64,000 nt of DNA from a virus. How positions within the stretch are numbered: position 1 is the first letter of the stretch; each line of letters opens with the position of its first letter. The stretch covers positions 6,388-70,387 of the IMG/VR virus record IMGVR_UViG_3300044729_001490; one strand, written 5' to 3'. The position numbers and the translations under genes are program-made. Under the pieces are notes generated by a model. It ran no database searches. It was not told where the DNA came from and was given only the letters and a program-made list of their open reading frames with translations. This document shows positions 3,439 to 49,189 of this stretch, piece by piece.

Positions 3439-6330
<2,892 letters not shown>

Positions 6331-35983: not shown

Positions 35984-36007
35984 CGATAGGATTATCCGAG
36001 GCGACCA

Positions 36008-36355: not shown

Positions 36356-36448
36356 ACGACATGGTTTACCGAGCCCCCTTCGGTAGACTTTCCATTTTAG
36401 AAACCGTTGTGAGGGGGCTTCGGTAGAACCAATTGTTTATAGTGCCTT

Positions 36449-36814
36449 ATGCCAAGAAACATTTCCTTTGCGTTGACAACAGATCAGATTCGGAATCGGA
36501 CTAAGACGGTCACCCGTCGTCTAGGCTGGAAGAATCTCAAGCCTGGTCAGATACTCAACGCGTGCGTGAAGTGCATGGGATTGAAACCAGGGGAACAGAT
36601 TCAGCGATTGGGTCAGATTCGTGTTGTCAGCGTGTTTCAGGAGCCATTGGTGGCGATGATGCGTGATGAGGCATACGGAAAGGCGGAAGCCCAGCGAGAG
36701 GGTTTCCCACAGATGGACGGCAAGCAGTTTGTAGAAATGTTCTGCGAACACATGCGACCAGTAAGCGGTTGCGTCACAGAGGTTACGCGGATCGAGTTCG
36801 AGTACGTTGATTAG
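36449..36814 (+). CDS. ASCH/PUA-like domain protein
   Basis: ISF..KTVTRR..A.REGF..VTRIEFEY. Confidence 0.75.
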   Translation: MPRNISFALTTDQIRNRTKTVTRRLGWKNLKPGQILNACVKCMGLKPGEQIQRLGQIRVVSVFQEPLVAMMRDEAYGKAEAQREGFPQMDGKQFVEMFCEHMRPVSGCVTEVTRIEFEYVD

Positions 36815-36948
36815 GTCAAATGAACGCTTGAAGCAGTCTGTTGTTTCTAATGAAAAAGGGGTGTTATTCATTAGAGAAAAAACGGCAAAAAGATACTGGG
36901 AAAACAGGTGACTCGCCTCTGATAATCCCGCAAAAGGGCAGCTGGAAG

Positions 36949-37323
36949 CTAGTCAAACGAATCCACGCCGTGAAGTTTACAGTGACATCGACAACACACA
37001 ACCATGATGTCCGTTCTCTTCTCTCTTCCAAGGCTTCGGTAGTGCTTGTGGTGGCATTGTAATCCTTTAGTCGTTCCGCACATCTCGCAAGTCTTTTGTA
37101 GCTGCCTGAACGACTTAGAGCGAGCCGCCCACTCGCTAGACTTTATGTACTTCCTGTAATCAACCCTCTTTTTCCTCAAAGGTTTAACCACCTTTGCTAC
37201 AAAACGAGGCTTCCCCGACTTAGTAAAGTTTTTTGCGTTATTCACCCAAAGTCTGAACGCGGTTTGCTTGTCCACGTCAGTAGGATTGTGCCGTAAGTAA
37301 ATCTCAAAGTCCTCTGGATACAT
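36949..37323 (-). CDS. Small HNH endonuclease (124 aa)
   Basis: YRKYIKSSEW..CEMC..HHKHY..CCRCH..H; likely start MYPED after AGGTGG. Confidence 0.85.
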   Translation of the reverse strand: MYPEDFEIYLRHNPTDVDKQTAFRLWVNNAKNFTKSGKPRFVAKVVKPLRKKRVDYRKYIKSSEWAARSKSFRQLQKTCEMCGTTKGLQCHHKHYRSLGREKRTDIMVVCCRCHCKLHGVDSFD

Positions 37324-37329
37324 AAACCA

Positions 37330-37770
37330 CCTACTTAAAAACAGCTGTAAGGTCCAAAAGTCGACAAGTCTAAGCGCAAAACCCCCCTCCTGCACCGCGC
37401 TAAGCCACGCAACCAATGCCGCTTGTCTCGGCATTCCCATCAGCACCAGGATATTTTAACGATAGAGCGTACATTACTGCACGTTATCGCCGTGCTGGCT
37501 TCGCGTAATTGCTTTCGCAGTGACTCACCAGCATATCGGATTTGTCGCCATGCCTTTGTTGCTCTCGACGCTCGGTAGCATGACCGTTGAACCGTTTTGC
37601 CAGATATGGGCTATCTGAGCCCATCAATAAAGAAAGCCCAGGTACTCCTGGAGGTGGAATCCTGAACAACACACCCAAGTTCGCGTTGCCAAGAACTCCA
37701 GGTGTAACTGGGCTCTGATGTAAACTACTTGGGTTTTTGTTGCCGTCAGGATTTCCACGTCCATTCGACA
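37330..37770 (-). ncRNA. Candidate large structured RNA or leader upstream of HNH
   Basis: Helices 37654-37680/37727-37758 and 37635-37653/37696-37714; hairpins 37606-37624, 37493-37533 and 37415-37435. Confidence 0.5.
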
Positions 37771-37775
37771 GAAGC

Positions 37776-37803
37776 ATTGTTATCATTGCCACACAAAAGT
37801 CAA
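37776..37803 (-). promoter_or_regulatory. Sigma70-like promoter for the structured RNA and HNH
   Basis: TTGACT-16 bp-AACAAT on the minus strand. Confidence 0.45.
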
Positions 37804-37936
37804 TCAACTATATTCAAAATGTTCGATGTCACCCAAAACAAGGAAAAAATCGATGCTCTGAATGTATTCGTGACCCGCCAAACGTGATTTTGACTGTTTC
37901 TTGGTTCAGTTGTCTTCAAATATGTTAGGGTTCAAA

Positions 37937-38362
37937 ATGATTTCTAAGCTAGTTCGTGCGAAGTTTCGGGTCAAAATCAACAGCCTTTCTGCCGAGTCCA
38001 GAATCATCCGCGTGGAGGAGAGGCGATGTGTCGGACAAAAGCGTTCTTCCGATCGCGGAGTCTTGCGGTGGCATCGGGTCAGCCTGCTGAGAGATGAGCA
38101 AAGGGCAACACTTTTGGCGTATGCCTTCGTTCGTGGCGTTCCTTACAAGGTTGTGGAGGGAAAAGGTGCCACGCCTTCAGATGCAATTATCGGCAGGATT
38201 TGCGAGATATCCCGCAGTCTGGCTTGGCGACGTATCTCGAATGATGACGTCGCCCCTGCAGAAGCTGCTGCGAAGGTGAAGAGCATGCGTCTGGCTTGGC
38301 GACGTATCTCGAATGATGACGTCGCCTGCTGGATGAGTGGTGTAAAAGAAAATGCGGCTTAA
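37937..38362 (+). CDS. Phage hypothetical protein carrying a 24-aa in-frame insertion
   Basis: KINSLSAESRIIR..HRV..LAYAFVRGVPY; LAWRRISNDDVA is duplicated. Confidence 0.75.
   Translation: MISKLVRAKFRVKINSLSAESRIIRVEERRCVGQKRSSDRGVLRWHRVSLLRDEQRATLLAYAFVRGVPYKVVEGKGATPSDAIIGRICEISRSLAWRRISNDDVAPAEAAAKVKSMRLAWRRISNDDVACWMSGVKENAA
38161..38175 (-). repeat. Motif B copy (GGCGTGGCACCTTTT)
   Basis: 14/15 match to GACGTGGCACCTTTT. Confidence 0.65.
38217..38326. repeat. CRISPR-like repeat-spacer-repeat unit (38-34-38 bp) with self-derived spacer
   Basis: Identical repeats at 38217-38254 and 38289-38326; 32 nt of the spacer are identical to 27935-27966. Confidence 0.9.
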
Positions 38363-38375
38363 CTAAGCCACATTG

Positions 38376-38447
38376 GCGACCATAGCATCAAGGCGATGCA
38401 AACGGCTTTCAATCCGTCTGAGGTGGGTTCGATTCCTACTGGTCGCA
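38376..38447 (+). tRNA. tRNA-Glu(TTC)-like gene with irregular anticodon arm
   Basis: Acceptor GCGACCA/TGGTCGC; D stem GCAT/ATGC; T arm GTGGG-TTCGATT-CCTAC; anticodon loop CTTTCAAT (8 nt); no CCA encoded. Confidence 0.75.
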
Positions 38448-38448
38448 A

Positions 38449-38691
38449 TTAGTCTGCTCCCTGTCTTGGGTTCAGGACTTCAGCCACCACGAACGTTTTA
38501 ACCCTCACCATTGACGCTGGAATCACATCGTCGTTCTCTCGTCGGACTTCGACCGGCCATTCGTACTGAGGCAGTCCAAGCCAGCTCAACGCCGCTTTAA
38601 CCGCCTCCTGCTTGGCTGCGCTGTACATGGAAACGTTTCCATAGTCGTTCCAGATGTCGGAACCTTCGAGTCTTGCTTGTGTGTTCGTCAT
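38449..38691 (-). CDS. Hypothetical protein
   Basis: 80 aa, last gene of the leftward operon. Confidence 0.6.
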   Translation of the reverse strand: MTNTQARLEGSDIWNDYGNVSMYSAAKQEAVKAALSWLGLPQYEWPVEVRRENDDVIPASMVRVKTFVVAEVLNPRQGAD

Positions 38692-38858
38692 TGTGCTTCA
38701 ACCTCTTCCTTTTTCTTTTCGAGTAGCTCAGTTCGTACAACTTCAATCTCCCGAGGAGCATCGATTGCCAGATTTGTTGTTCCGCCAGCTTTTACCGTAA
38801 TCACAATCGTTCCACCAATCGTGATGGACTCCCCAACTTTTCGTTTAATCATTAGCAT
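38688..38858 (-). CDS. csrA: CsrA/RsmA-family translational regulator (56 aa, missing from ORF track)
   Basis: MLMIKRKVGESITIGGTIVITVKAGGTTNLAIDAPREIEVVRTELLEKKKEEVEAQ. Confidence 0.9.
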   Translation of the reverse strand: MLMIKRKVGESITIGGTIVITVKAGGTTNLAIDAPREIEVVRTELLEKKKEEVEAQ

Positions 38859-38915
38859 TATTAATTCTTTCTGTTTAGTGGCTTACCATGCAAGCCATTC
38901 CATGATTGCTGTCCA

Positions 38916-39446
38916 TTAGCAGTAGTGCGGTCGTCGAGCTGGCATCGGCTCAGGCGGCCACGATTCAAGCCTAGCGCAGAAGTGCCCTTCGGATGCTACG
39001 GATGACGGAGAACGACGATTGCTATTCTCTCGCTCGCACCATGCACGCAGTTCCACCATAGCCTTTTCGGCTTCCTCCACTGACGTGAAGTGTCCATAGC
39101 GTGGTGGCGTCTCGTCCCAGTCTCCATCGGCAGGAGTGTAGGTGTCATACCACCATCCCCCCTCCTCGGGTCCACCATAGTCGCGGTCGTGCAGATACAA
39201 GTTCGCGTACAGATGTGGTGTTGCGTCTGCAATCTCCCACGATCCTGTTTCGTCCTCGCCTTCCAGCTTCGTTTGCTCCACGCGTCCGTCCTTCCATCGG
39301 ACGGTAATCGTTCCGATTGTTTCGTAACCGTCGCGGTCGCAATCCTCTTCAATTGCAATGATTGTCCCGCCGATAGCGTTATCGGGAACAATCCATTCAC
39401 CTTCGCCGTTCAGGTGCACAAACGTAACCAAGCTACCTACTCTCAT
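38916..39446 (-). CDS. Phage hypothetical protein (YGGPEEGGWWY motif)
   Basis: 176-aa acidic ORF. Confidence 0.7.
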   Translation of the reverse strand: MRVGSLVTFVHLNGEGEWIVPDNAIGGTIIAIEEDCDRDGYETIGTITVRWKDGRVEQTKLEGEDETGSWEIADATPHLYANLYLHDRDYGGPEEGGWWYDTYTPADGDWDETPPRYGHFTSVEEAEKAMVELRAWCERENSNRRSPSSVASEGHFCARLESWPPEPMPARRPHYC

Positions 39447-39573
39447 TTCTAATCCCCTTTTCTTCGAACTCGATACTTACAGACGGTTCACCGTGAACTC
39501 GTGTTACTGTTACTCTCACTCGCTGGCTTGCGCAACCGCAGCAAACTAGCAAAAGCAAAATCCATTTTGCCAT
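39433..39573 (-). CDS. Small putative lipoprotein (46 aa)
   Basis: MAKWILLLLVCCGCASQ...; AGGAG SD. Confidence 0.6.
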   Translation of the reverse strand: MAKWILLLLVCCGCASQRVRVTVTRVHGEPSVSIEFEEKGIRNESR

Positions 39574-39585
39574 CTCGATACTCCT

Positions 39586-39840
39586 TTAGTTTTGTTCTGG
39601 GTTGTAAGTCACTTCCGCCTTGAACTCTCTGCACTCTTGGTTCAGGCTTTCAATTAAATCAATGTGCGATTCCACGTTATCGCTGTCGTCGTCTGCACCT
39701 ATATCCTTCATGACTCGCATAATCGTATAAGCACCCGCAAAGAACGAGTTGCGCATGTCAGTGTATTGCCTGCTTGGTGGCTCCAATCCTAGCCCTTTAG
39801 CCAATAGCATCCACGCTTGTTGAATCAATCTTGTTTGCAT
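39586..39840 (-). CDS. Hypothetical protein
   Basis: 84 aa, ..MRNSFFAGA.. Confidence 0.65.
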   Translation of the reverse strand: MQTRLIQQAWMLLAKGLGLEPPSRQYTDMRNSFFAGAYTIMRVMKDIGADDDSDNVESHIDLIESLNQECREFKAEVTYNPEQN

Positions 39841-39843
39841 TAT

Positions 39844-40095
39844 TTATCCTTTGAGTAAATTGTTTTCCTCTACCAGTCTGATTAAGCCTTGTTCCAAGGC
39901 AGTTGGGATATGGACGTGTTTATTAAAGCTGTCTTCCGGATCGTCGTAAACGGCTTTGTCGTCCACTAATCCAGGAAACCACTTACCCTTGTAATAGAAC
40001 AGATCAGGGCGTTTCTCTAGCGGAGCACCTGTAGCCGCCACAACGTATTTCTTTTCCATAATTTCCTTGATACAAAATTCAGACACGTGAAACAA
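39844..40095 (-). CDS. Hypothetical protein
   Basis: 83-aa coupled ORF. Confidence 0.55.
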   Translation of the reverse strand: MFHVSEFCIKEIMEKKYVVAATGAPLEKRPDLFYYKGKWFPGLVDDKAVYDDPEDSFNKHVHIPTALEQGLIRLVEENNLLKG

Positions 40096-40243
40096 TCACA
40101 CCTAGCACAAACCCGCATAGCGTGGATATGAGTGCAGTGTAGTAAAGTTGCCGACGTATGTTGACAGTGGAATAGTTGTTTTCTGATGCGGCGTACCCTT
40201 CCAGGTAGGCCGCTTGGTAATTGTCATCGTCGATTGTGTTCAT
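40079..40243 (-). CDS. Small membrane protein
   Basis: MNTIDDD...C-terminal TM segment. Confidence 0.55.
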   Translation of the reverse strand: MNTIDDDNYQAAYLEGYAASENNYSTVNIRRQLYYTALISTLCGFVLGVIVSRV

Positions 40244-40247
40244 CGCT

Positions 40248-40718
40248 TTATGACACCGCCAGTTCTTCGTCTGTGTACGCGCAGCCACCATCAGCAAACC
40301 CATCGCTTGGGATAACCTGCGCGACCAATGGCAAGATGGATGCAGGGAAATCGTACTCGCTGCGGTTCGCCTTAGCTTTGGTATACAAGCGTTCAATGAG
40401 CTCGTCGTGCTTGCCGTTACGCACATCGTTCGCGATGCGCTCGAGTGTCTTAGCCGAGAATCGTGCGGCTGGCTCCAGGCTTGCGGTTGGGTTACCTTTT
40501 CCGTCGAGCAACATAGACGTAAAGCCTTGGTCTGACTTTCGGTCGTGTTGGACACTGATATCGTAACCTCTAGGGATTAGGTCACCTGTAAAGTAGCTGA
40601 CGCCTCCCTTTGTATAGCTCACGACCAGCGTAAGGCGTGGCGTAAGCATAGCGTTACAATCCTTGAATGCAGGCGCTGTAACTTGTTTGATAATGATGGA
40701 CTGTGTAGACATGTGCAA
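40248..40718 (-). CDS. Hypothetical protein
   Basis: 156 aa, AGGAG SD. Confidence 0.7.
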   Translation of the reverse strand: MHMSTQSIIIKQVTAPAFKDCNAMLTPRLTLVVSYTKGGVSYFTGDLIPRGYDISVQHDRKSDQGFTSMLLDGKGNPTASLEPAARFSAKTLERIANDVRNGKHDELIERLYTKAKANRSEYDFPASILPLVAQVIPSDGFADGGCAYTDEELAVS

Positions 40719-40740
40719 ATCTCCTTTGCGTTATTGAATG

Positions 40741-40796
40741 CCGACTCTGACAATCAGAGGCTCGGGCGGTCGGTCACTGGGCGAAGTGACCTCACG
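40741..40796 (-). ncRNA. Early-operon RNA motif, copy A
   Basis: CGTGA-GGTCACT-TCGCCC-AGTGACC-GACCGCC followed by a hairpin. Confidence 0.6.
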
Positions 40797-40835
40797 TTCG
40801 AGTCTATGCGTGGACTCCTCATGTCCGAACTCTAG

Positions 40836-40982
40836 TCATGACAATTTCCAAGGACCAACTACACGGACAATACAGGCATCTGGCATATCTTCCAAAATCT
40901 TTGCAGTTGCTTGCTCTTTAGTTTCGCACCTTACGTTTTTAGTGCCTTCGATTCCATTCACGGTGTATGTGACTTCAAACAT
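40836..40982 (-). CDS. Small hypothetical protein
   Basis: MFEVTYTVNG.. with GGAGG SD. Confidence 0.55.
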   Translation of the reverse strand: MFEVTYTVNGIEGTKNVRCETKEQATAKILEDMPDACIVRVVGPWKLS

Positions 40983-40984
40983 TA

Positions 40985-41278
40985 CTATGCCTCCACGTTT
41001 GTTGTACTGTCCTCGATTGCTTTGACCGCCGCATCTGCTCCCGCTTGACATCCGCGAACGTACTCGGCCATCAACGCTTTAGCTTCATCGCTCGAATCGA
41101 TTCCGTCCCATCCAAACTTTGTTTTCACAAAACTAGAATCGGCGTTGATTAGCATTCCATCCCAGCCATCGCAACCGGCATCGGCGGATTCGCTTTCGCG
41201 AGCCATTTCGTTGCCGTGCTCGAATCCCAGATCGTAGGCTTGCGATAGTGTCAACAGTGCAATTGTGTTGTTCGTCAT
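40985..41278 (-). CDS. Hypothetical protein
   Basis: 97 aa, AGGAG SD. Confidence 0.65.
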   Translation of the reverse strand: MTNNTIALLTLSQAYDLGFEHGNEMARESESADAGCDGWDGMLINADSSFVKTKFGWDGIDSSDEAKALMAEYVRGCQAGADAAVKAIEDSTTNVEA

Positions 41279-41306
41279 TTGTGAATCTCCTTGATTGTGT
41301 AGTGGT

Positions 41307-41349
41307 CCTGCGACGATGCAGGCGGTCGGGGTCGGGCGAACCCCTCACG
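41307..41349 (-). ncRNA. Early-operon RNA motif, copy B
   Basis: CGTGA-GGGGT-TCGCCCG-ACCCC-GACCGCC followed by a hairpin. Confidence 0.6.
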
Positions 41350-41360
41350 CGCAAAACGTC

Positions 41361-41657
41361 TTAGTCCTTCGTTCTCGCCCATCCGTAAGCGTAAGCAATT
41401 GATAGTTGGTATTTCATGGTTTCTTCGTGTCCGCTTCCCATTGCTGCCATACATTCAACATGATCCGCGCCGAGGTAAGTCTGCTTGTTCTGCGCAAGGT
41501 AATGGCTTGCCTCTTGGAGTTTCTTCCAGACGTGTTCAGCTCCCAGCCAATCGCCGTTGCCTCTAGGTAGTTTCGCTTGTCTCTTCTCAACTGGCGACAA
41601 TTCCATTGGCTTGAGTGGGCAATTGTTTTCCCAGAATATTTTTGAAGGCCTTGTCAT
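41361..41657 (-). CDS. Hypothetical protein
   Basis: 98-aa coupled ORF. Confidence 0.6.
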   Translation of the reverse strand: MTRPSKIFWENNCPLKPMELSPVEKRQAKLPRGNGDWLGAEHVWKKLQEASHYLAQNKQTYLGADHVECMAAMGSGHEETMKYQLSIAYAYGWARTKD

Positions 41658-41878
41658 TTCACGACTCCATTTCTTAGTTCTGTCGCGGTTTCCCAGTTGC
41701 AGTAAATGAATCCACGCGATTCCGCTTTAGAATCGACAACCGCCATCTTGTACGTGACCGACTCAGCGTGTTTGATTGCGTCCAATAGGCGAGCGTATTG
41801 CCCAGCTGGAACTACCTCGGGGTAGTCCGAGTATGCTTCGACGTTGAACACCTTGTATCGTTCGTCTGTTGTTGCCAT
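41654..41878 (-). CDS. Hypothetical protein
   Basis: 74-aa ORF. Confidence 0.6.
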   Translation of the reverse strand: MATTDERYKVFNVEAYSDYPEVVPAGQYARLLDAIKHAESVTYKMAVVDSKAESRGFIYCNWETATELRNGVVK

Positions 41879-41882
41879 TGTT

Positions 41883-42074
41883 TCAATCCTTCTCTTTTGT
41901 TTTAGTTAGTGTGATTTCTTGTGACGCGAAAAGCGCGTGCTCCATGTTGCAAAGTAAGTTCATCAGACCTTCAGCCCAATCGGGTAATGGCTGCCCCTTT
42001 TCGCCGTACTCTGCAAAGAGCAATTGCCCGAATTCGTTTGCTTGGTCGGTTAGCAGTTCTAGATTGATTTTCAT
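41883..42074 (-). CDS. Hypothetical protein
   Basis: 63-aa ORF. Confidence 0.55.
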   Translation of the reverse strand: MKINLELLTDQANEFGQLLFAEYGEKGQPLPDWAEGLMNLLCNMEHALFASQEITLTKTKEKD

Positions 42075-42298
42075 TTCGATATCCTTTCGCGGTTTAGCTT
42101 GGCGACCTCTTTTTTGTACTCAGTAACAGAACACTCTCCGATGCTCAATCGTGAGCCATCTGGTAGCGGCAGAGTGCCGACATAGCCTTTCATGTTGAAG
42201 TACAGTTGGTCGAAGAGCTTGCCATCGACCAGAACGTCATAGCGCGGCGTGCGCTCTAGCATTTGGCATCCGCGCGTTGTCTTAACGAGTTTAATCAT
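42071..42298 (-). CDS. Hypothetical protein
   Basis: 75-aa ORF. Confidence 0.6.
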   Translation of the reverse strand: MIKLVKTTRGCQMLERTPRYDVLVDGKLFDQLYFNMKGYVGTLPLPDGSRLSIGECSVTEYKKEVAKLNRERISK

Positions 42299-42309
42299 GG
42301 TCTTATTCC

Positions 42310-42933
42310 TTAGAATTTGAGAAATGCGATGTTTTTATCGGCAGCGAAGCAAGCCTTGCAGCGTGCGCATGTGGTTCGTTTTTCGGCTGGGACGCCCTTA
42401 CGCTTTTGCGCATCCACTGGGCAAAGAAACTCATCGGCTTGGCGTTCAGTCGCCTCGTTGATGACTCTCGCGGTTCTCCATCCGTTGGCGTTGTGTGCTG
42501 CTTTCTCGTCGGCAGAATCACAGCTCGCTAGGATGTGCAGATTGCTCGGTAAGTCTTTGGGTGTGATTCCAGCCTTGCGCCACTCTGCCGCTGCGTGTGT
42601 GTAGCCCCAACCCGTCAACCAGGGAGCTTTTTTGTGCAATGCGATGACGGCGCGGACGAACGCCTTATCGAGTGTCTTACGACCGTTTGCGAGAGTCTTG
42701 AGCCAATCACCACTAACCAAATGCCTTGCAAGTGTATTGCCTGCTAAAGCCATCAGGTCGCCGTTATCGTCGGCAGACTTTGTGGCGTGGATGCCAACGT
42801 GCCCACGTTGGGCATAGCATCCATTCCCCAGCAATGGGCAGGATGGAGGGCAAGTAATTCCGACGGGTCTGTAGGTCGTTCCAACGCCTGGTCCGAGCTT
42901 GGCGTTGTTGCCGTTTGAAACTACTTTGAGCAT
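42310..42933 (-). CDS. Cys-rich phage Gp88-like protein
   Basis: NAKLG..TCPPSCP..CYA..R..VSGD..YTH..CP..TCARCKAC. Confidence 0.6.
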   Translation of the reverse strand: MLKVVSNGNNAKLGPGVGTTYRPVGITCPPSCPLLGNGCYAQRGHVGIHATKSADDNGDLMALAGNTLARHLVSGDWLKTLANGRKTLDKAFVRAVIALHKKAPWLTGWGYTHAAAEWRKAGITPKDLPSNLHILASCDSADEKAAHNANGWRTARVINEATERQADEFLCPVDAQKRKGVPAEKRTTCARCKACFAADKNIAFLKF

Positions 42934-43376
42934 TACATAGACTCCAATACAGAAGTCGCGTAATCGCCAACAACGATATGGTCGAGAACCTTGATTCCGA
43001 CGATATCGCCCACCTTTTGGAGCATTTCGGTAACTGCTCGGTCTTGACGGCTCGGTGTCGGGTCGCCTGATGGGTGGTTGTGAATGAGCAAAATGCTCGC
43101 GGCGGCGTCGGCAATGGCTGCCCTGAATACTTCTCGGGGATGCACTAGCGAAGCGTCTAGCGTGCCTCTAGTGATGCGTACAACGCGACGAACTCGGAGT
43201 TGTGTGTCGAGTGTCGCAATCAAGAACTCTTCTTGGTCGAGTTTGTCGGCGAAATATTCGCCAAGACAGTTTTTCGCCCACTCGCAAGCGGCTGCCGACG
43301 AGTTGATTTTCGTCGACTGGTAGTGAGTTGCGGACTCGCCGACTTTCTGGAAGCGTGTTTCAAACACTGTTTTCAT
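42933..43376 (-). CDS. radC: RadC/JAB-domain protein
   Basis: GTLDASLVHPREVF..HNHPSGDPTPSRQD..VLDHIVVG. Confidence 0.93.
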   Translation of the reverse strand: MKTVFETRFQKVGESATHYQSTKINSSAAACEWAKNCLGEYFADKLDQEEFLIATLDTQLRVRRVVRITRGTLDASLVHPREVFRAAIADAAASILLIHNHPSGDPTPSRQDRAVTEMLQKVGDIVGIKVLDHIVVGDYATSVLESM

Positions 43377-43404
43377 TGGTCAATCCTTCTTAGATTGGCT
43401 TGGT

Positions 43405-43465
43405 GGTAGCTGCCATCGTCAGTACCTCGGAACTACCCGAGATAAACGCCCGAAGGCGTTTCGGC
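43405..43465 (-). ncRNA. Type II hammerhead ribozyme with loop I/3'-tail pseudoknot
   Basis: GCC-GAAA-CGCC(TTCG)GGCG-TT-TATCTCGG(GTAGTT)CCGAGGTA-CTGACGA-T-GGC-AGCTACC. Confidence 0.88.
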
Positions 43466-43466
43466 T

Positions 43467-43853
43467 TTAGTTTGCTGCCTTCAGTTCTGGTTTAATAACG
43501 AAACACTTCGAAGTCATCGTTTGAAACTCCGATTCGATGCGGCCTAGGATTCTTTCGGCGGTGTGCTCGCGGAATAGCATGGAACACTCAACGTCTAGGT
43601 CTTTCCATTCGCCACCCTTGGAAACGTCCCATTCTATTTCGACTGACTCCTCTGTGATGGAAACGCAGAAAAAGTAGCCGCCGTCTCTATTGTGGAGCAT
43701 GACTTGGCTCGCGTCCTCTGTGTAGACAAGCCCTGCGAAAAACTCGCGCAAGAATTCCGACACCTCTTTAGTGATTCCGGCGGCGTTCAATACTGATTGT
43801 GCTTCGATGAGGTAATCCAAAGCAGTCTTTTGTTTAAGTTCTTGTTCTGTCAT
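43467..43853 (-). CDS. Acidic hypothetical protein, first early gene
   Basis: Likely start MTEQ after AAGGA. Confidence 0.65.
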   Translation of the reverse strand: MTEQELKQKTALDYLIEAQSVLNAAGITKEVSEFLREFFAGLVYTEDASQVMLHNRDGGYFFCVSITEESVEIEWDVSKGGEWKDLDVECSMLFREHTAERILGRIESEFQTMTSKCFVIKPELKAAN

Positions 43854-43929
43854 TTTCTTAATCCTTCGTAGATAGTGGACTTGGGACCATTCCCCTATAC
43901 GCCGCGAAGTGCGGGTCTGTACTATGTCC

Positions 43930-43957
43930 ATTGTCGCCACCTGCGTTTCGGTGTCAA
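43930..43957 (-). promoter_or_regulatory. Leftward early promoter
   Basis: TTGACA-16 bp-GACAAT on the minus strand. Confidence 0.6.
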
Positions 43958-44212
43958 TACTATTTCTTCCAACATTGGGCATAAAATAGGGCAGATTCTA
44001 CAAAATAGCCTGTTTTCCCTGCGTTTGCTGCGTGTTTTTTTGGGGTAATGAGTGCTTAAATCTGGTACTATTGGGTCGTTTCGGAGGCTGTTTTGTGCTG
44101 TCTTGGGTGGTGTCCGATGCGGTCGCTTTAATGAGAGACTGCACGGAGCCAGGATGAGCGACGAAGTGCAACCGCCAGCAAGCAAACAAACGCAAGCAAA
44201 CCAAAGGAAACC

Positions 44213-44902
44213 ATGACGAAACAAACGCTGATGATGACCGTGTTCAAGCGACTGAAAGCCGAGAATCGCTGGGACGAAGCAGAACCCGTAAGGGATGAGC
44301 TGGCGACCCGTGCCAGAGACCTCCGCCTTAAAGGACAGGACGCCCAGAACTACACGTATACCGAACTCGCCAAGAAATACCCTCCACTGGACGGCTCGAA
44401 ACCTGAAACGGCAATCAGCGAGGATCCAGCAAACGAGCGAAAACCAAGCAAACCAGCAAAACAGCAACTTGAAACGGGGGACGCCGCCCGTTTTTCGACC
44501 GCGGCAGACGTGGCACCTTTTCCAGTCCAAGACGTGGCACCTTTTTCCAAAAGTGGCGATTTGTCAGTGTCAGGATTGTCAAAAATCCCTGAGAATTGGG
44601 GCGATTTGCCGTCTAACGCGCAGCTGAGCGCCGAGGTTAGCTGGGTGCAGGCAAACAGGCTTCGGGTGGTCCGCGAAACGGCTGATGGAGTCGTTGTCGA
44701 CCTGTCTCGGGCGTTGTCGCCAGCGCCGTCCTACGCGACCCTCGGCTGGCTCGAAACCTCGATCAAGACGTACGCTAAGTTCGTGGATGTTGCCGCCAAA
44801 GCGACCGCGACGCAGGATAGCGAGGCGGCTGAGATCCGCCGCGAGCAACAATCCATCGAGGAGGTTCGCCGACTGTTGGCGTCGATGCTGGAGGCTGATT
44901 AA
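44213..44902 (+). CDS. Hypothetical protein, possible terminase small subunit
   Basis: 229 aa, helical, first gene after the strand switch. Function inferred only. Confidence 0.4.
   Translation: MTKQTLMMTVFKRLKAENRWDEAEPVRDELATRARDLRLKGQDAQNYTYTELAKKYPPLDGSKPETAISEDPANERKPSKPAKQQLETGDAARFSTAADVAPFPVQDVAPFSKSGDLSVSGLSKIPENWGDLPSNAQLSAEVSWVQANRLRVVRETADGVVVDLSRALSPAPSYATLGWLETSIKTYAKFVDVAAKATATQDSEAAEIRREQQSIEEVRRLLASMLEAD
44507..44545 (+). repeat. Motif B tandem pair (GACGTGGCACCTTTT x2, 24-bp period)
   Basis: 44507-44521 and 44531-44545; both encode DVAPF. Confidence 0.85.
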
Positions 44903-44940
44903 GGCGTTTCCCCTGTGTTTTCATTGGTGGAAGTCAATTC

Positions 44941-44957
44941 TGTGACACGCTGTCACA
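44941..44957. repeat. Dispersed palindrome copy 7 (reverse orientation, centre CGC)
   Basis: TGTGACACGCTGTCACA. Confidence 0.95.
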
Positions 44958-45390
44958 AAATCTAGGCGTCGAGATGGCTAGCGATGTCGGCAATGACCGC
45001 TTTGCAGGAAACCTCGTATTTCGCAGGGATTTATAGGTTTTCACCCCTAGTCCGACACCAACAAGTATGGGCTACGTGGTGCGTGTGGACTGCTGGTGCT
45101 CATGTGTGCAGGCTGCTAGCTGTGGGATGCTGGCTACGCTTGGGTGCTTGGCGCACGGCGTGTGCGCTGTTTACGCGAGGCTAGCGCGTGGTGCTGCGAG
45201 CTGTGACGCAAGCAGGCACCGAGGCGTTGAAGGGCTAGAAGTGCAGGGATTCGTTGGGTTTTTGTGCGTGCAAGGTGATGGCAGCGGAAACGTAACCACA
45301 CCCCCACCCCACCGTCGCGGGACTCCTGACGAATGTCCATTTTTCGTCAGCCCTAATTTTCAAGTGCGTGTCTGGGTCAATGCTCCTGGC

Positions 45391-45430
45391 GTTAGTTTTT
45401 GGCTAACTGAGTTAGTTATTAGCTAACTGG
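45391..45430. repeat. Tandem GTTAG-N7-CTAAC palindromes (20-bp period)
   Basis: gttagtttttggctaactga gttagttattagctaactgg. Confidence 0.65.
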
Positions 45431-45608
45431 GGATAGTAGTGGGTTTAGTGTCTCTGAGGGGCATTTTGTTAAAGCGGTTGGTGGCAACTTTTCCAGTACA
45501 AAACACCTCCAGGAGTGAAGTGTTGGAGGTCTAACGGAATTTGAACCGCGACAGCCACCCATGCCTCGCGCTCCGAAGTACCACTCTAAAATCAGCCACA
45601 ATTTCCAG

Positions 45609-45637
45609 TTGCGTTGACGGGTCAATGGTGTTATGTT
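45609..45637 (+). promoter_or_regulatory. Sigma70-like promoter
   Basis: TTGCGT-17 bp-TATGTT with extended -10 TG. Confidence 0.5.
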
Positions 45638-45644
45638 GCTAGTG

Positions 45645-45777
45645 TGCTTGTCGCAGGGTTCTTAAGAATGATGGCCATCGACTACGCGATTAGGATTGCA
45701 ACCGAAAGCGAGACGGCAGCAAGGGATATTACGGTTCGATTCCGTTGTGTTGCGACTTGAGAATCCTGCGACTGGCA
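45645..45777 (+). ncRNA. Candidate structured small RNA with T-loop
   Basis: 17-bp closing helix 45650-45666/45756-45772 (two G-U pairs); internal ACGG-TTCGATT-CCGT. Confidence 0.55.
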
Positions 45778-45875
45778 TTCTGGTGGAATCCGCCATGTTT
45801 AGGCGTTGTGGTTTTGTAGTGTGAGGCTGGTTAGGATAGTGCCTTTGTTTGAAGTGGGACCCGGGACAGTATCTG

Positions 45876-46568
45876 ATGTTGTTTTCAAAGTTTCCTAGTT
45901 ATAAGTGCGAAGCTCCAATTGAACCTCAGAGTCTTTCAGAGGTTAATTTCCGTCCTTCGATGTTGGAGATTCCTGTTTTTTCAGACGACCGAGAGATTAC
46001 TTATCAGCTGCAAACGCTTTATCGAAACGGGTCGTACAACTCAACGATTCGGCTGGATTTCATACAGCCAATTTTTGATTACATGGCTGAGACTAAGGCA
46101 ATTCGCTTTCGCAGGGTTTCTCAAGGCGCAAGATTGATTATTGAGCAAAGCAATCGTTCAAAAGGAAAGAATGTTTTTGCTTGGGCAGGCGGAAACAAAA
46201 TTAGCTTGTCGCCTGATGCAAATTACGGACGAAGCGTTTACACGACAGCCGTTGTGCTGTGCCACGAGTTTTTACATTGCGCAGGAGGAAGTTCGCATTC
46301 TAAAAAAGCAGAACCATTAATGGCTGCTAATGGAGGGACGACAGGTGGGTTTACTGCTTTAGACGAACCGTGGTGGAAGGCTTACGCATGGAAAGGCTCA
46401 GCAAGACCTGAAGCTGGCGGTCTTAGAAAGCGATTTGGAAGTGTACAAACACTTGAGGGTCGTGATTTGTCAGGTGAAGAAATTGCTATTGAAAAACTTT
46501 TTAGCTCAAGTGGTTGTGGTTGCGAAATGTCGTGGTTAGAACTTTTTTTTGGAGTAATGGAACCGTGA
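45876..46568 (+). CDS. Metzincin (M10-like) zinc metallopeptidase
   Basis: HEFLHCAGGSSH (HExxHxxG..H) followed by Met-turn PLM. Confidence 0.7.
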   Translation: MLFSKFPSYKCEAPIEPQSLSEVNFRPSMLEIPVFSDDREITYQLQTLYRNGSYNSTIRLDFIQPIFDYMAETKAIRFRRVSQGARLIIEQSNRSKGKNVFAWAGGNKISLSPDANYGRSVYTTAVVLCHEFLHCAGGSSHSKKAEPLMAANGGTTGGFTALDEPWWKAYAWKGSARPEAGGLRKRFGSVQTLEGRDLSGEEIAIEKLFSSSGCGCEMSWLELFFGVMEP

Positions 46569-47026
46569 AAACAAAAACGCACAATTATTTGCGATGGTTA
46601 ATTTTTCGCGATATGCCGACAGTTGTGGATATTGAAAACGAAAGTTTCAGCAATCCTTGGACTAAAAAGGAGTTTGTTCGCTGCATGAGCAATTGCAACG
46701 TCATTGGTATGGTAGCTGAAGTTAACAATGAAGTTGTTGGCTACATGATTTACGAAATAATGCCGAAAGAAATAACTCTTCTTTCGTTTGCGGTTCACCC
46801 AAAACATCGAAGAAGTGGCGTCGGAAGAACTTTGATTGAAAGATTGATTTACAAACTTGATAAAGGGCGAAGAAACAGAATATTGGCTGCAGTTCGCGAA
46901 AGAAACCTCGAAGCTCAACTATTTCTTCGCAATATGGGGTTTCTTTGTACTCAAGTGCTGACGGATTATTACGAGAATGTCACAGAAGATGCGTACATGA
47001 TGGAGTATTTTATAAGTGACAATTGA
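46565..47026 (+). CDS. rimI: RimI-like GNAT N-acetyltransferase
   Basis: IENESFSNPW..FAVHPKHRRSGVG..VRERNLEAQLF...GF..YY..EDAYMM. Confidence 0.85.
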   Translation: MKTKTHNYLRWLIFRDMPTVVDIENESFSNPWTKKEFVRCMSNCNVIGMVAEVNNEVVGYMIYEIMPKEITLLSFAVHPKHRRSGVGRTLIERLIYKLDKGRRNRILAAVRERNLEAQLFLRNMGFLCTQVLTDYYENVTEDAYMMEYFISDN

Positions 47027-47175
47027 GCAACCTTGGCGTGGGAGCGTCGTAACGGGACGCAAAACGCTGGTGAGCACTAGAGCCGCGAGTCTTCATAATC
47101 GCAATCGGTGCAGCAGGGAGGCTGGCCTCAGAGGAAGAGCCGTCCCTGCAATTTTTTAGCGGTGATTGGTTGTAA
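47027..47175 (+). ncRNA. Candidate multi-stem intergenic RNA
   Basis: GGCGT..GCGTC/GACGC..ACGCT; GCAC..GCGA/TCGC..GTGC; GCAGGGA-GGCT/AGCC-TCCCTGC followed by a T-run. Confidence 0.4.
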
Positions 47176-47194
47176 AAAACTAAAGGAACAAAAC

Positions 47195-47752
47195 ATGATA
47201 TATTCGAAATCTGGCGACATACCAACTCATCAATACTGCTACGTCGAGCAAAGGTACATAACTGGCGGCGAGTTGCAAGGTGTTGAACCCTGCGTTTGGT
47301 TCGGTATTGTTGCCTACACCGGCAGAGTGTGGGGCTGTCAGATTATGTTGAAATGCGGCGCAGTGTATCGCGAAGTTCCGTTGCATGCACTGAGCTTTTG
47401 CAAGCAGCCAATCCCTGAATGGTCACCCGCACTTGCGCAACATTGGGATTGCTACGGCAATGAGTTTTCGACTCTGTGCTACAAATATCTTTACGGATTG
47501 GATGTAAAAGCAAGATGCGCATTCGACCAAGAGCACGAAGGTAAATATTTGTTTACAGCAATTCCGGTTGGAGATGCTTACTCCGAAGCTCCTGACGAAG
47601 CAAAAGAGTTTGCCTTTATCCAACTCGACAACGGCAGAGTTACATGCCAGCCAACAAACAGATTGTTGTTTATTGATAAATCGTTTACTTCTCGCGACGC
47701 CGAGTGGCCCAAGCACCTTAGACCTCTTGAAACAACGTACCACGCAGAATGA
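47195..47752 (+). CDS. Phage hypothetical protein
   Basis: 185 aa from MIYSK; ..GAVYREVPLHAL..WDCY..QPTNR. Confidence 0.7.
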   Translation: MIYSKSGDIPTHQYCYVEQRYITGGELQGVEPCVWFGIVAYTGRVWGCQIMLKCGAVYREVPLHALSFCKQPIPEWSPALAQHWDCYGNEFSTLCYKYLYGLDVKARCAFDQEHEGKYLFTAIPVGDAYSEAPDEAKEFAFIQLDNGRVTCQPTNRLLFIDKSFTSRDAEWPKHLRPLETTYHAE

Positions 47753-47759
47753 AAAATTT

Positions 47760-47775
47760 TGTGACAGCGTGTCAC
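47760..47775. repeat. Dispersed palindrome copy 8
   Basis: TGTGACAGCGTGTCAC between the convergent stops at 47752 and 47782. Confidence 0.93.
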
Positions 47776-47781
47776 TAAATT

Positions 47782-48366
47782 TTATTTTTCTCGCTGTATG
47801 CGAATGTATCTCCACACAGTGCTTTCGCAAACACCAAGTTTGTCTGCAATCCGCTTGGCACTCCATCCTCGCAATCTCCACCTTGCAATTTTCTTTGGGT
47901 CAAATCCTGGCTTGGTAGCACCAGGCTTTTTGCCTTTGTAGAGTCCTTTTGCTTGTGCTTGTTCGATTCCCTGTCTTTGGCGCATGCGTTTGTAGTGGTC
48001 CGCAAGGTTTAGAACAACATTTAGAAGAGAATGAGCAGACTTGATGCTCTCGGAGTCGAAAAAGATATCTTGCGAGATGACGACAATCGCTATGTCCTTC
48101 GAAGCCAGAACGGCAATTGCGTCTGTTATTGTTGCGATAGAGGTGAATGCTTGCTCGAGACTGTACAGAACTAGCGTCTGGATAGAGCCGTTTTGAATGT
48201 CTTCGAACATCTGCTGGAACTCAGACTTTGACTCGCGGTCAACGAACCAGTGGACAGACGACGGGACAATTTTGTTTTGCATAAGCCATTTTTGAATGCC
48301 CGCGCGCTGAATGACCTCTGGCGGGAAAAAACGGTCAACCTGCATATAAACCGCAACTGTCGTCAT
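47782..48366 (-). CDS. Resolvase/invertase-family protein with degenerate catalytic motifs and intact HTH
   Basis: YMQVDR in place of YxRVST; SLEQAFT in place of xLDRLxR; RQRQGIEQAQAKG.YKGKKPG and HTH retained. Confidence 0.8.
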   Translation of the reverse strand: MTTVAVYMQVDRFFPPEVIQRAGIQKWLMQNKIVPSSVHWFVDRESKSEFQQMFEDIQNGSIQTLVLYSLEQAFTSIATITDAIAVLASKDIAIVVISQDIFFDSESIKSAHSLLNVVLNLADHYKRMRQRQGIEQAQAKGLYKGKKPGATKPGFDPKKIARWRLRGWSAKRIADKLGVCESTVWRYIRIQREK

Positions 48367-48444
48367 AAAATCTCCTTCTTGCTTTATTACTGTTCTGGGT
48401 CTATGGTAGTATGAAGTATTGTTGTTTGTTTAGGGAGTGGGTTT

Positions 48445-48741
48445 ATGAAAAAGCTGGAAATCGCTGCGGATGCGAAGTACGGCAATTTGGTTATTGTTCA
48501 AGAGGTCGAGCCTCTTGGAACCAAGCGCAGGTTTTTGTGTGCGTGCTCTTGCGGAGCTTCAAAGATTGTCCGTCTAGACCACTTGCGTAGTGGACATACC
48601 CAGACATGCGGAAGCTGTGGGATTGAACATGAAGGCGAGAGGATGCCGCTTTGCGAGTGGGCGAAACTCGCTGGACTTCCTGAATCGACACTTCGGGCAA
48701 GGCTGAAGACTATGGACATGTCTGAGGCGTTACTTAGGTAG
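48445..48741 (+). CDS. Homing-endonuclease-associated DNA-binding domains without an HNH core
   Basis: FLCACSCG..LRSGHTQTCG joined directly to LCEWAKLAGLPESTLRARL. Confidence 0.55.
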   Translation: MKKLEIAADAKYGNLVIVQEVEPLGTKRRFLCACSCGASKIVRLDHLRSGHTQTCGSCGIEHEGERMPLCEWAKLAGLPESTLRARLKTMDMSEALLR

Positions 48742-48761
48742 TTTATTTCTAGGAGTTTGTT

Positions 48762-49046
48762 ATGAAAAAGTGCTTGTGTCTTGGTGGAAAAATGTTTTGG
48801 TCAGACTTGAGTAAGCAGCTTGCTAATGTCTGGTCTGAGGTTGCGGAGCTTGGCGGGACGTTGCAGCATGGAGATTTGGAAAATGCTGAAACTATGTTTT
48901 CAGTAGTTCTAAATAATCATGGTGGGCGTTGCTTTCATGCGGAAACGCCAATGGACGCATGGAGAAAAGCAAAAGATTGGCTTTTGTCTCCTAGTCGCCC
49001 TTCATTTGCGGCAACTCAAGACACTGTAGTTACTGAAGTTTGTTGA
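48762..49046 (+). CDS. Hypothetical protein
   Basis: 94 aa, AGGAG SD. Confidence 0.55.
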   Translation: MKKCLCLGGKMFWSDLSKQLANVWSEVAELGGTLQHGDLENAETMFSVVLNNHGGRCFHAETPMDAWRKAKDWLLSPSRPSFAATQDTVVTEVC

Positions 49047-49071
49047 CATGAAAAATGGACATGGCTATATT
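49043..49071 (+). promoter_or_regulatory. Near-consensus sigma70 promoter
   Basis: TTGACA-17 bp-TATATT. Confidence 0.8.
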
Positions 49072-49108
49072 TGGAATCTCACTCTGCCTAGTAGGCAAAT
49101 CTCCAAAG

Positions 49109-49141
49109 AAGGGTGCGTTACTTCGGTGGCGCACCCTTTTT
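49109..49141 (+). terminator. Intrinsic terminator
   Basis: GGGTGCGTTAC-TTCG-GTGGCGCACCC-TTTTT. Confidence 0.85.
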
Positions 49142-49148
49142 CTATTTC

Positions 49149-49165
49149 TGTGACACGCTGTCACA
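49149..49165. repeat. Dispersed palindrome copy 9 (reverse orientation)
   Basis: TGTGACACGCTGTCACA, 25 bp before terL. Confidence 0.95.
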
Positions 49166-49189
49166 AAATTCCTGAAAGGCTAATGTAGC

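What the first reader, a model, noticed from the sequence alone, without database searches (positions are those of the whole stretch)
43405..43465. Pseudoknotted type II hammerhead ribozyme between the first early gene and radC
Seen on the minus strand: stem II GCC/GGC, GAAA, stem III ACGCC/GGCGU capped by UUCG, a GUU cleavage triplet, 8-bp stem I UAUCUCGG/CCGAGGUA, and core CUGACGA with one extra U before stem II. Loop I GUAGUU is complementary to the 3' tail AGCUAC. Established: this is the hammerhead core, and loop-tail pseudoknots are typical of bacterial and phage type II examples. Inference: cleavage between 43445 and 43444 would split the early transcript and give the radC-led mRNA a 5'-OH end about 68 nt before its start.
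Basis: partly seen in the sequence, partly recalled or inferred. Interest (0 to 1): 0.72.

Follow-up and report, generated by a model that had tools for sequence, protein, structure and literature searches.

The report
Type II hammerhead ribozyme between phage genes
A genuine copy of a well-known self-cutting RNA (a type II hammerhead ribozyme) sits between the first gene and the radC-like gene of a phage operon, an arrangement described since 2011 whose purpose is still untested.

Summary
Minus strand 43466-43404 matches Rfam Hammerhead_II (RF02276) at 45.7 bits, above the gathering score of 37. The motif fills the 90-nt gap between the stop codon of an unknown gene and the ribosome site of a RadC/JAB gene, in a 70-kb phage record.

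Two details are less common: an extra U after A9 (17 of 113 sampled phage type II hammerheads) and U at the cleavage position (1 of 113).

Syntenic relatives fill the same slot differently. One lineage has type II hammerheads, five have a pistol-ribozyme core lacking stem P1, two have an unassigned hairpin element, and one has no ribozyme match. This suggests selection for cutting at the gene junction, not for one RNA fold.

Cleavage itself is untested. This is a new member of a known kind. The scan has already reported ribozyme-punctuated phage operons and P1-less pistols on other DNA.

The parts
43930..43957 (-). Promoter-like site TTGACA-16-GACAAT. Candidate start of the leftward operon.
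   Evidence: 10 of 12 consensus matches. This is a consensus match only. It lies inside the longest-ORF version of gene 1.
43467..43853 (-). Gene 1, unknown function. 128 aa from ATG 43853; the longest ORF starts at 43982 (171 aa). The TAA stop is at 43469-43467.
   Evidence: ORF. GAAGGA lies 8 nt before ATG 43853, like radC's ribosome site. No Pfam, PHROG or Atlas lead. No tblastn relative in viral contigs.
43404..43466 (-). Type II hammerhead ribozyme, whole Rfam match.
   Evidence: RF02276, 45.7 bits, gathering 37, E 3.7e-6, model 1-66 of 66.
43463..43465 (-). Stem II 5' strand GCC (11.3-11.1). It starts 1 nt after the stop codon.
43459..43462 (-). Core G12 A13 A14 A15.1.
   Evidence: aligned to the model.
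43446..43459 (-). Stem III ACGCC/GGCGU with UUCG loop. It would become the 3'-terminal hairpin of the upstream cleavage product.
43444..43445 (-). Predicted scissile bond, between H17 = U43445 and U43444.
   Evidence: Position follows from the hammerhead numbering applied. Not tested.
43423..43444 (-). Stem I (8 bp) with loop GUAGUU 43436-43431. It would become the 5'-terminal hairpin of the downstream product.
43416..43422 (-). Core C3-A9, CUGACGA.
43415..43415 (-). Extra U between A9 and G10.1.
   Evidence: One search shows it as an insert. The same U insert is in 17 of 113 sampled phage type II hammerheads.
43412..43414 (-). Stem II 3' strand GGC.
43406..43411 (-). 3' tail AGCUAC, pseudoknot partner of loop I.
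   Evidence: The tail is in the same register as AGCC(A) in the L010 hammerheads.
43384..43390 (-). Ribosome site AGAAGGA, 7 nt before the radC ATG.
42933..43376 (-). RadC-like JAB-domain gene (147 aa).
   Evidence: PF04002, 8.4e-38; phrog_10276, 3.6e-36.

Best explanation
This is a functional type II hammerhead ribozyme transcribed as part of the leftward operon that starts near 43930-43957.

Once its 3' tail has been made, loop I pairs with the tail, stems I and II align, and the RNA cuts itself between U43445 and U43444. Cleavage was not tested; this step is inferred from family membership.

The cut would give two products.
- The gene-1 message ends 22 nt after its stop codon, in the stem III hairpin with a 2',3'-cyclic phosphate.
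- The radC-led message begins with a 5'-OH directly at the stem I hairpin, 68 nt before the radC start.

Inferred consequence: the variable leader gene and the conserved radC module are physically uncoupled. Decay and translation of the downstream genes then no longer depend on what lies upstream, as with a natural insulator.
For: - Rfam match above the gathering score over the full model. All invariant core bases and the three helices are present, and the three stems are recovered by folding the 71-nt stretch.
- The 6-bp loop-tail pseudoknot is the feature that Perreault et al. 2011 showed to be needed for fast cleavage in type II examples (PMC3088659, passages read).
- A syntenic relative (L008/L009/L010, RadC 69% identical) has a type II hammerhead at the same place, 48.9 bits, and a second one about 480 nt upstream, 53.2 bits. 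Their stems I and III differ from the window's but still pair. The tail and loop change together: AGCC(A) with (U)GGCU in L010, AGCUAC with GUAGUU in the window.
- In five other syntenic relatives the same slot holds a pistol-ribozyme core. L002/L003 show no ribozyme match and have a promoter-like site about 70 nt before radC.
- The extra U after A9 recurs in 17 of 113 sampled phage type II hammerheads.
- The motif is packed stop-codon to ribosome-site like most of its kind. In 66 of 113 the stop of an upstream frame of at least 60 codons ends within 1 nt of stem II, against 28 of 2260 random positions.
- Precedents. Clustered prophage hammerheads cut 2-kb polycistronic transcripts in vitro and in E. 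coli (PMC3088659, passages read). Three predicted type II hammerheads of Desulfovibrio vulgaris cleave in vivo and in vitro (PMC8782182, passages read). The engineered ribozyme insulator RiboJ raises downstream protein 2-10 fold in E. coli (PMC6206723, abstract).
Against: - No cleavage or RNA-end data exist for this locus.
- H17 is U, seen in only 1 of 113 sampled phage type II hammerheads (C in 109, A in 3). GUC is the usual natural triplet (PMC1636495, passages read), so the rate may be lower.
- An extra base between A9 and G10.1 moderately lowered the rate in the one case I could read about, the CChMVd (+) hammerhead, which has an extra A (PMC1636495, passage read).
- Folded in 161 nt of context, the minimum-energy structure pairs the 5' strand and loop of stem III with bases in the last codons of gene 1 instead. 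That structure has frequency 0.004 and z -1.17, and the fold cannot score the pseudoknot.
- The 71-nt fold is only modestly better than shuffles (z -1.9; 5 of 200 shuffles fold as well).
- There is no general link to radC. Hammerhead_II was found in 3 of 50 further RadC-bearing viral records, 2 of them being L009 and L010, and in 1 of 5 close relatives' records.
- The insulation role is inference only.
Confidence: 0.72

Rival explanations
1. Slow or decaying hammerhead. The motif descends from an active ribozyme, but the GUU triplet and the extra U have reduced or abolished cutting, so it now acts at most as an intergenic hairpin pair.
For: H17 = U occurs in 1 of 113 sampled relatives. There is an insert after A9. 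A competing helix appears in the 161-nt fold.
Against: All invariant core bases, all three core-adjacent pairs and a 6-bp pseudoknot are intact. The score is above gathering. U is allowed at H17 in the published consensus (PMC3088659). The U insert is common in nature (17 of 113).
Confidence: 0.12
2. Cassette joint. The ribozyme sequence mainly marks the junction at which small leader genes are gained and lost between the promoter and radC, by recombination at conserved joints. RNA cutting is then secondary or serves the incoming gene.
For: - The stretch between the divergent 229-aa gene and radC is variable, while both flanks are conserved.
- Mapped leader ORFs in several relatives end at a ribozyme-like element.
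- In L010 about 70 nt of the 3' end of the 75-aa gene is repeated before both hammerheads. The second copy is not part of a listed ORF in its own frame, so it looks like a remnant. Together the repeats bracket an inserted 77-aa gene.
- Gene 1 of the window has no relative in viral contigs.
Against: Different ribozyme classes with no shared sequence fill the same slot, which argues for selection on RNA function rather than DNA homology. The stems of the two L010 hammerheads differ, so they are not a simple duplication.
Confidence: 0.1
3. Translation-coupled switch. Stem II starts 1 nt after the stop codon, so a ribosome terminating on gene 1 would cover stem II and part of stem III. Cutting would then depend on how heavily gene 1 is translated.
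For: Stop-codon abutment is strong and is shared by two ribozyme classes: 66 of 113 hammerheads against 28 of 2260 random positions, and 15 of 29 P1-less pistols. The competing helix uses the last codons of gene 1, which a translating ribosome would open.
Against: Tight packing of phage genes explains the abutment equally well. In the same sample the downstream start lies 11-30 nt after the tail in 68 of 113. There is no experimental support.
Confidence: 0.1
4. Chance resemblance with no ribozyme ancestry.
For: The fold energy is only modestly better than shuffles (z -1.9).
Against: E 3.7e-6 for the window across 4227 families. A syntenic hammerhead is present in a relative. The loop and tail are complementary.
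Confidence: 0.01

Closest known systems
Type II hammerhead ribozymes of bacteria and phages (Rfam RF02276; Perreault et al. 2011, PMC3088659)
   Same: Same core, same open stem II and capped stems I and III, same loop I to 3'-tail pseudoknot, short stem II (3 bp), and the same phage intergenic setting.
   Different: An extra U after A9 (a minority variant, 17 of 113) and a GUU rather than GUC triplet (1 of 113). It is a single copy in this genome rather than a cluster.
Clustered hammerheads flanking single genes in prophages (Agrobacterium tumefaciens ardA locus, Clostridium scindens, Azorhizobium caulinodans; PMC3088659, passages read)
   Same: A ribozyme between co-oriented genes of one transcript. 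The relative L010 has two hammerheads bracketing a 77-aa gene.
   Different: Those were shown to cut; this one was not tested. The window has one ribozyme, and the neighbouring gene is radC-like rather than ardA.
HHphage of haloviruses HF1/HF2 (PMC3088659, passage read)
   Same: A hammerhead in the early region just upstream of a gene, with a mapped transcript 5' end near the cleavage site.
   Different: That one is an archaeal virus, lies 13 nt before the start codon, and is a core variant. Here the element is 27 nt from the start and follows an upstream ORF.
RiboJ, an engineered self-cleaving ribozyme insulator (PMC6206723, abstract read)
   Same: A self-cleaving ribozyme placed before a ribosome site that removes upstream context. 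This is what the window's element would 'work like'.
   Different: RiboJ is synthetic and was tested in E. coli. The insulating role here is only inferred.
Pistol ribozyme (Rfam RF02679; Harris et al. 2015, PMC4604425)
   Same: This applies to relatives, not to the window. The element in the same slot of L004, L006, L011, L012 and L013 aligns to pistol model positions 24-68, with P2, P3, the 6-bp pseudoknot and the G-U site.
   Different: It lacks stem P1 and the linker and scores about 20 bits against a gathering score of 34.5. In the canonical ribozyme, disrupting P1 caused a substantial loss of activity (PMC4604425).

Membership tests
Hammerhead ribozyme type II (RF02276) | Covariance-model score at or above the curated gathering score | tested here: met
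   45.7 bits against 37, full model 1-66. Same result on the genome record.
Hammerhead ribozyme type II (RF02276) | Core C3 U4 G5 A6 N7 G8 A9 | tested here: met
   CUGACGA at 43422-43416. N7 = C, as in 39 of 113 sampled examples.
Hammerhead ribozyme type II (RF02276) | Core G12 A13 A14 and the A15.1-U16.1 pair | tested here: met
   GAAA at 43462-43459; U16.1 = 43446.
Hammerhead ribozyme type II (RF02276) | H17 = A, C or U 5' of the scissile bond | tested here: met
   U43445. This is allowed by the consensus quoted in PMC3088659 but rare: 1 of 113.
Hammerhead ribozyme type II (RF02276) | Type II topology: stems I and III closed by loops, stem II open to the flanks | tested here: met
   Order is stem II 5' strand, GAAA, stem III hairpin, UH, stem I hairpin, CUGANGA, stem II 3' strand.
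Hammerhead ribozyme type II (RF02276) | Standard pairs directly next to the core (1.1-2.1, 15.1-16.1, 10.1-11.1; criteria of PMC3088659) | tested here: inconclusive
   U43444-A43423 and A43459-U43446 are present. G43414-C43463 is present but separated from A9 by the inserted U43415. The same insert is seen in 17 of 113 natural examples. Its effect on rate is not known for this RNA.
Hammerhead ribozyme type II (RF02276) | Pseudoknot of four or more pairs between loop I and the bases just 3' of stem II | tested here: met
   GUAGUU with AGCUAC, 6 pairs including one G-U, starting right after stem II. A stricter script that extended stem I by a G-U pair still found 4 pairs.
Hammerhead ribozyme type II (RF02276) | Mg2+-dependent self-cleavage giving 2',3'-cyclic phosphate and 5'-OH ends | not testable with these tools
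   There is no biochemical tool here and no RNA run could be used.
Pistol ribozyme (RF02679): element in relatives' slot, not in the window | Stem P1 whose loop forms the pseudoknot | tested here: not met
   Only 1 nt separates the 5' pseudoknot strand from P2 in all 29 aligned copies. Rfam aligns only model positions 24-68.
Pistol ribozyme (RF02679): element in relatives' slot, not in the window | P2, P3, 6-bp pseudoknot and a G-U junction, with covariation | tested here: met
   11 of 17 pairs show changes on both sides in 29 sequences. Caveat: these 29 were chosen from 96 pattern matches because they pair perfectly.
Pistol ribozyme (RF02679): element in relatives' slot, not in the window | Score at or above the gathering score | tested here: not met
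   19.5-20 bits against 34.5.

The most novel reading that the evidence does not exclude
In this phage family the stretch between the leftward promoter and radC is a class-agnostic self-cleavage slot. Most mapped leader genes end, at or within a base of their stop codon, in some self-cleaving RNA, and a genome with no convincing leader gene has none. The RNAs seen are a type II hammerhead, a P1-less pistol, and possibly the unassigned element of L005/L007. The ribozymes would then be the obligatory joints of a gene-cassette system, insulating the conserved radC module from whatever is inserted upstream, perhaps with cutting gated by ribosomes terminating on the cassette gene.
Probability: 0.25. 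Interest if true: 0.6.

Novelty: new member of a known kind. Interest (0 to 1): 0.3.

Why it matters
The biological role of bacterial and phage hammerheads is still open (review PMC6765202, passages read).

This single copy adds little by itself. Its family, however, offers a compact natural comparison. The gene junction is orthologous, with conserved flanks. Across ten distinct relatives it is filled by a hammerhead, a P1-less pistol core, an unassigned element, or no ribozyme match.

That makes a swap-and-kill experiment easy to design and interpret: active versus dead ribozyme, one class exchanged for another, and both neighbouring cistrons read out.

Tried and rejected
- **Phage DNA search.** blastn of 42900-44000 against deposited phage genomes found no match.
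- **Gene 1 relatives.** None in viral contigs. No Pfam or PHROG family. Atlas hits scored only 0.80, a level that shuffled proteins often reach.
- **RNA evidence.** No RNA holder was listed for 42900-44100.
- **Metagenome scan with RadC**. The best hits were 51-62% identical, no closer than the viral loci. These loci were not analysed further.
- **General radC link.** Rejected: Hammerhead_II in 3 of 50 further RadC-bearing records.
- **Other ribozymes in the window.** None at the gathering score. None at E up to 5 in 36000-49500. No P1-less pistol core with up to 2 mismatches. A loose pattern for hammerheads with a closed stem II gave 2 matches against 3.7 expected by chance.
- **Terminator reading.** The two terminator-like calls at 43450-43464 are halves of the stem III region with weak T runs, and the count (2) equals the shuffle mean. 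Rejected.
- **Pattern with one N too many.** One search gave only chance-like matches (1 of 70 passed my pairing filter). It was repeated correctly.
- **Third element of L005/L007.** There was no Rfam match for it: L007 was scanned at E up to 10 and L005 at E up to 0.1. A pattern built from its conserved bases returned 116 distinct matches, of which 114 lacked the hairpin and look like GC-rich coding sequence. Nothing could be concluded.
- **Papers.** The Weinberg et al. 2015 paper (PMC4509812) is not held. I did not see its gene-association lists, nor any supplementary files, and these may bear on whether radC or stop-codon abutment is already noted. My searches for a printed statement on stop-codon abutment or radC found none.

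Full report
**What is there**

On the minus strand, positions 43466-43404 carry a complete type II hammerhead. The parts, in order, are:
- the TAA stop of the upstream ORF (43469-43467), then one A;
- stem II 5' strand GCC;
- GAAA;
- stem III, ACGCC/GGCGU with a UUCG loop;
- U43445 as H17;
- stem I, UAUCUCGG/CCGAGGUA with loop GUAGUU;
- the core CUGACGA;
- one extra U (43415);
- stem II 3' strand GGC;
- the tail AGCUAC, which pairs with loop I (6 pairs, one G-U).

Rfam's Hammerhead_II model matches at 45.7 bits (gathering 37, E 3.7e-6, full length). It is one of two matches at gathering score in the 64-kb window; the other is a tRNA. Folding the 71 nt alone returns the three stems (-23.4 kcal/mol, z -1.9).

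**Setting**

The window is part of a 70,387-bp IMG/VR virus record rated complete. It holds tail-fibre-like, helicase and weak portal-like matches.

The hammerhead fills a 90-nt gap between two co-oriented minus-strand genes.
- Upstream lies an ORF with no family and no relatives in viral contigs.
- Downstream lies a RadC-like JAB gene (PF04002, 8.4e-38), followed by a DUF7227 gene.

A promoter-like site, TTGACA-16-GACAAT at 43957-43930, lies inside the longest version of the upstream ORF. An ATG at 43853 is preceded by GAAGGA at the same kind of spacing as radC's own site. The first gene is therefore probably 128 aa, and it is the first gene of the operon. Beyond it lies a divergent 229-aa gene. 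'Early' remains a guess.

**How typical the motif is**

I sampled phage type II hammerheads with a pattern that fixes the window's stem III and the core but nothing after A9. It gave 113 distinct matches.
- After A9, 93 continue directly into GG, 17 have an extra U, 1 has an extra A, and 2 do something else. The extra U is a recurrent natural variant.
- An extra base at this position is known in an active viroid hammerhead, where it moderately lowers the rate (PMC1636495, passage read). I recall, but did not see, that the original study found U there to be well tolerated.
- H17 is C in 109, A in 3 and U in 1. The window's GUU is allowed by the consensus (PMC3088659) but rare.
- In 161 nt of context, the minimum-energy fold pairs the 5' strand and loop of stem III with the last codons of gene 1. 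That structure has frequency 0.004 and z -1.17, and the fold cannot score the pseudoknot.

These three points are the reasons not to take full activity for granted.

**Relatives**

RadC found 159 relatives in viral contigs, of which 80 were kept. Twelve loci (L002-L013) have RadC 52-82% identical. Many also share the divergent 229-aa gene upstream and the DUF7227 gene downstream, so the junction is orthologous. Some loci are identical in the region shown (L002 = L003; L008 = L009 = L010). With the window this leaves ten distinct versions.

| Slot content | Versions | Evidence |
|---|---|---|
| Type II hammerhead directly before radC | 2: the window, and L008-L010 (48.9 bits), which has a second copy about 480 nt upstream (53.2 bits) | |
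| Element that Rfam aligns to pistol model positions 24-68 at about 20 bits | 5: L004, L006, L011, L012, L013 | |
| Unassigned two-hairpin element | 2: L005, L007 | |
| No ribozyme match; promoter-like site about 70 nt before radC; only overlapping mechanical ORFs in the 600-nt spacer | 1: L002/L003 | |

In L012 and L013 both leader ORFs end in a pistol core.

The window and L010 hammerheads differ in stems I and III yet keep pairing, and the tail and loop change together.

Hammerhead_II is not generally tied to radC. It was found in 1 of 5 close whole records and in 3 of 50 further RadC-bearing records, two of which are L009 and L010.

**The pistol-like neighbour**

A corrected pattern gave 96 distinct matches. 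Of these, 29 have a perfect 4-bp P2, a 6-bp pseudoknot and a P3 of at least 5 bp. The rest pair poorly, so the distribution is bimodal. Aligned, 11 of 17 pairs show changes on both sides, with the caveat that the 29 were selected for pairing.

Only one base separates the 5' pseudoknot strand from P2, so stem P1 of the canonical pistol cannot exist. In the canonical ribozyme, disrupting P1 caused a substantial loss of activity (PMC4604425).

I derived this before looking it up. The scan had already reported P1-less pistols on other DNA.

**Position rule**

In 66 of the 113 hammerheads, the stop codon of an upstream open frame of at least 60 codons ends within 1 nt of the first base of stem II. 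At random positions in the same loci the figure is 28 of 2260. In 68 of 113, the next start codon lies 11-30 nt after the tail. The same holds for 15 of 29 P1-less pistols. The window fits: stop +1 nt, start +27 nt. An earlier report of this scan noted the same abutment in another phage. I found no printed statement of it in my searches. Supplements and the 2015 discovery paper were not available to me.

**Mechanism**

What is shown: the sequence is a member of a ribozyme class whose members cut themselves 3' of H17.

What is inferred:
- The operon transcript is cut between 43445 and 43444.
- The gene-1 message then ends in the stem III hairpin with a cyclic phosphate, 22 nt after its stop.
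- The radC message then starts with a 5'-OH flush with the stem I hairpin.
- From general knowledge of bacterial mRNA decay (recalled, not checked here), both kinds of end hinder the usual end-dependent nucleases. The two halves would therefore decay independently.

Unrelated ribozyme folds occupy the same orthologous junction, and the version without a convincing leader gene has no ribozyme match. This favours selection for the cut itself. That matches the published view that the exact motif is unimportant at such sites (PMC6765202). It also matches the behaviour of engineered ribozyme insulators (PMC6206723, abstract).

Rivals are a slowed relic, a cassette joint, and translation-gated cutting. 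The cassette-joint reading is supported by the repeated gene end around an inserted gene in L010. None of the rivals is excluded.

**Verdict**

This is a real, ordinary type II hammerhead: a new member of a known kind, with two minority sequence features and no activity data. The scan has reported many ribozyme-punctuated phage operons before (31 findings in at least 29 genomes). The useful extra is the orthologous slot that different ribozyme classes fill in close relatives.

Noticed in passing
L004:689-738, L006:2392-2441, L011:2385-2436, L012:2081-2132 and 2386-2435, L013:1842-1893 and 2384-2433 (relatives, not the window): A pistol-ribozyme core without stem P1 sits in the slot before radC and after other leader ORFs. 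29 of 96 pattern matches in viral contigs pair perfectly and covary. There are up to 4 copies per contig (L301, L377). The scan has already reported this variant on other DNA.
   Followed up: yes
L005:2375-2450 and L007:2380-2450: A third, unassigned two-hairpin element occupies the same slot before radC. L007 had no Rfam match at E up to 10 and L005 none here at E up to 0.1. A pattern search for more copies returned almost only chance matches.
   Followed up: partly
window 41279-41360 and 40719-40835, minus strand: These are the only other long gaps I saw in the same operon (from the ORF list and the sequence). Each starts right after a stop codon and carries a shared motif: CGUGAGG, a hairpin with loop UUCGCCC, GACCGCC, then a second hairpin. 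There is no Rfam match at E up to 5. Because ribozymes cluster, these are candidates for another processing element. They are the subject of another note of this scan.
   Followed up: partly
L010:1850-1925 and 2330-2402: About 70 nt of the 3' end of a 75-aa gene is repeated before both hammerheads. No ORF is listed in the second copy's own frame, so it looks like a remnant. The pair brackets an inserted 77-aa gene, like a footprint of cassette insertion.
   Followed up: partly
L005, L007, L011, L012, L013, about 20-60 nt before radC; also P3 loops in L377: A short hairpin with a loop containing GUGAGA recurs just upstream of the radC ribosome site in several relatives and as the P3 loop of two pistol cores. 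It is absent from the window.
   Followed up: no
window 43854-43982, minus strand: The longest ORF for gene 1 (171 aa) contains the promoter-like site. The likely start is ATG 43853 (128 aa), which has a GAAGGA ribosome site.
   Followed up: partly
L005:1213-1276: Sub-threshold Hammerhead_3 match (32.7 bits, gathering 48.5), about 1.2 kb upstream of radC in a relative.
   Followed up: no
record of L039 (G038:C1:965-1029 and 4721-4796): Two sub-threshold Hammerhead_II matches (35.9 and 28.7 bits) in a more distant RadC-bearing viral contig.
   Followed up: no
window 11201-24742, plus strand: A single 4513-aa open reading frame, very large for a 70-kb phage.
   Followed up: no
window about 43451-43456 with about 43478-43483, minus strand: In the 161-nt fold, the last codons of gene 1 pair with the 5' strand and loop of stem III. 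This is a possible competitor of the ribozyme fold that a translating ribosome would remove.
   Followed up: no
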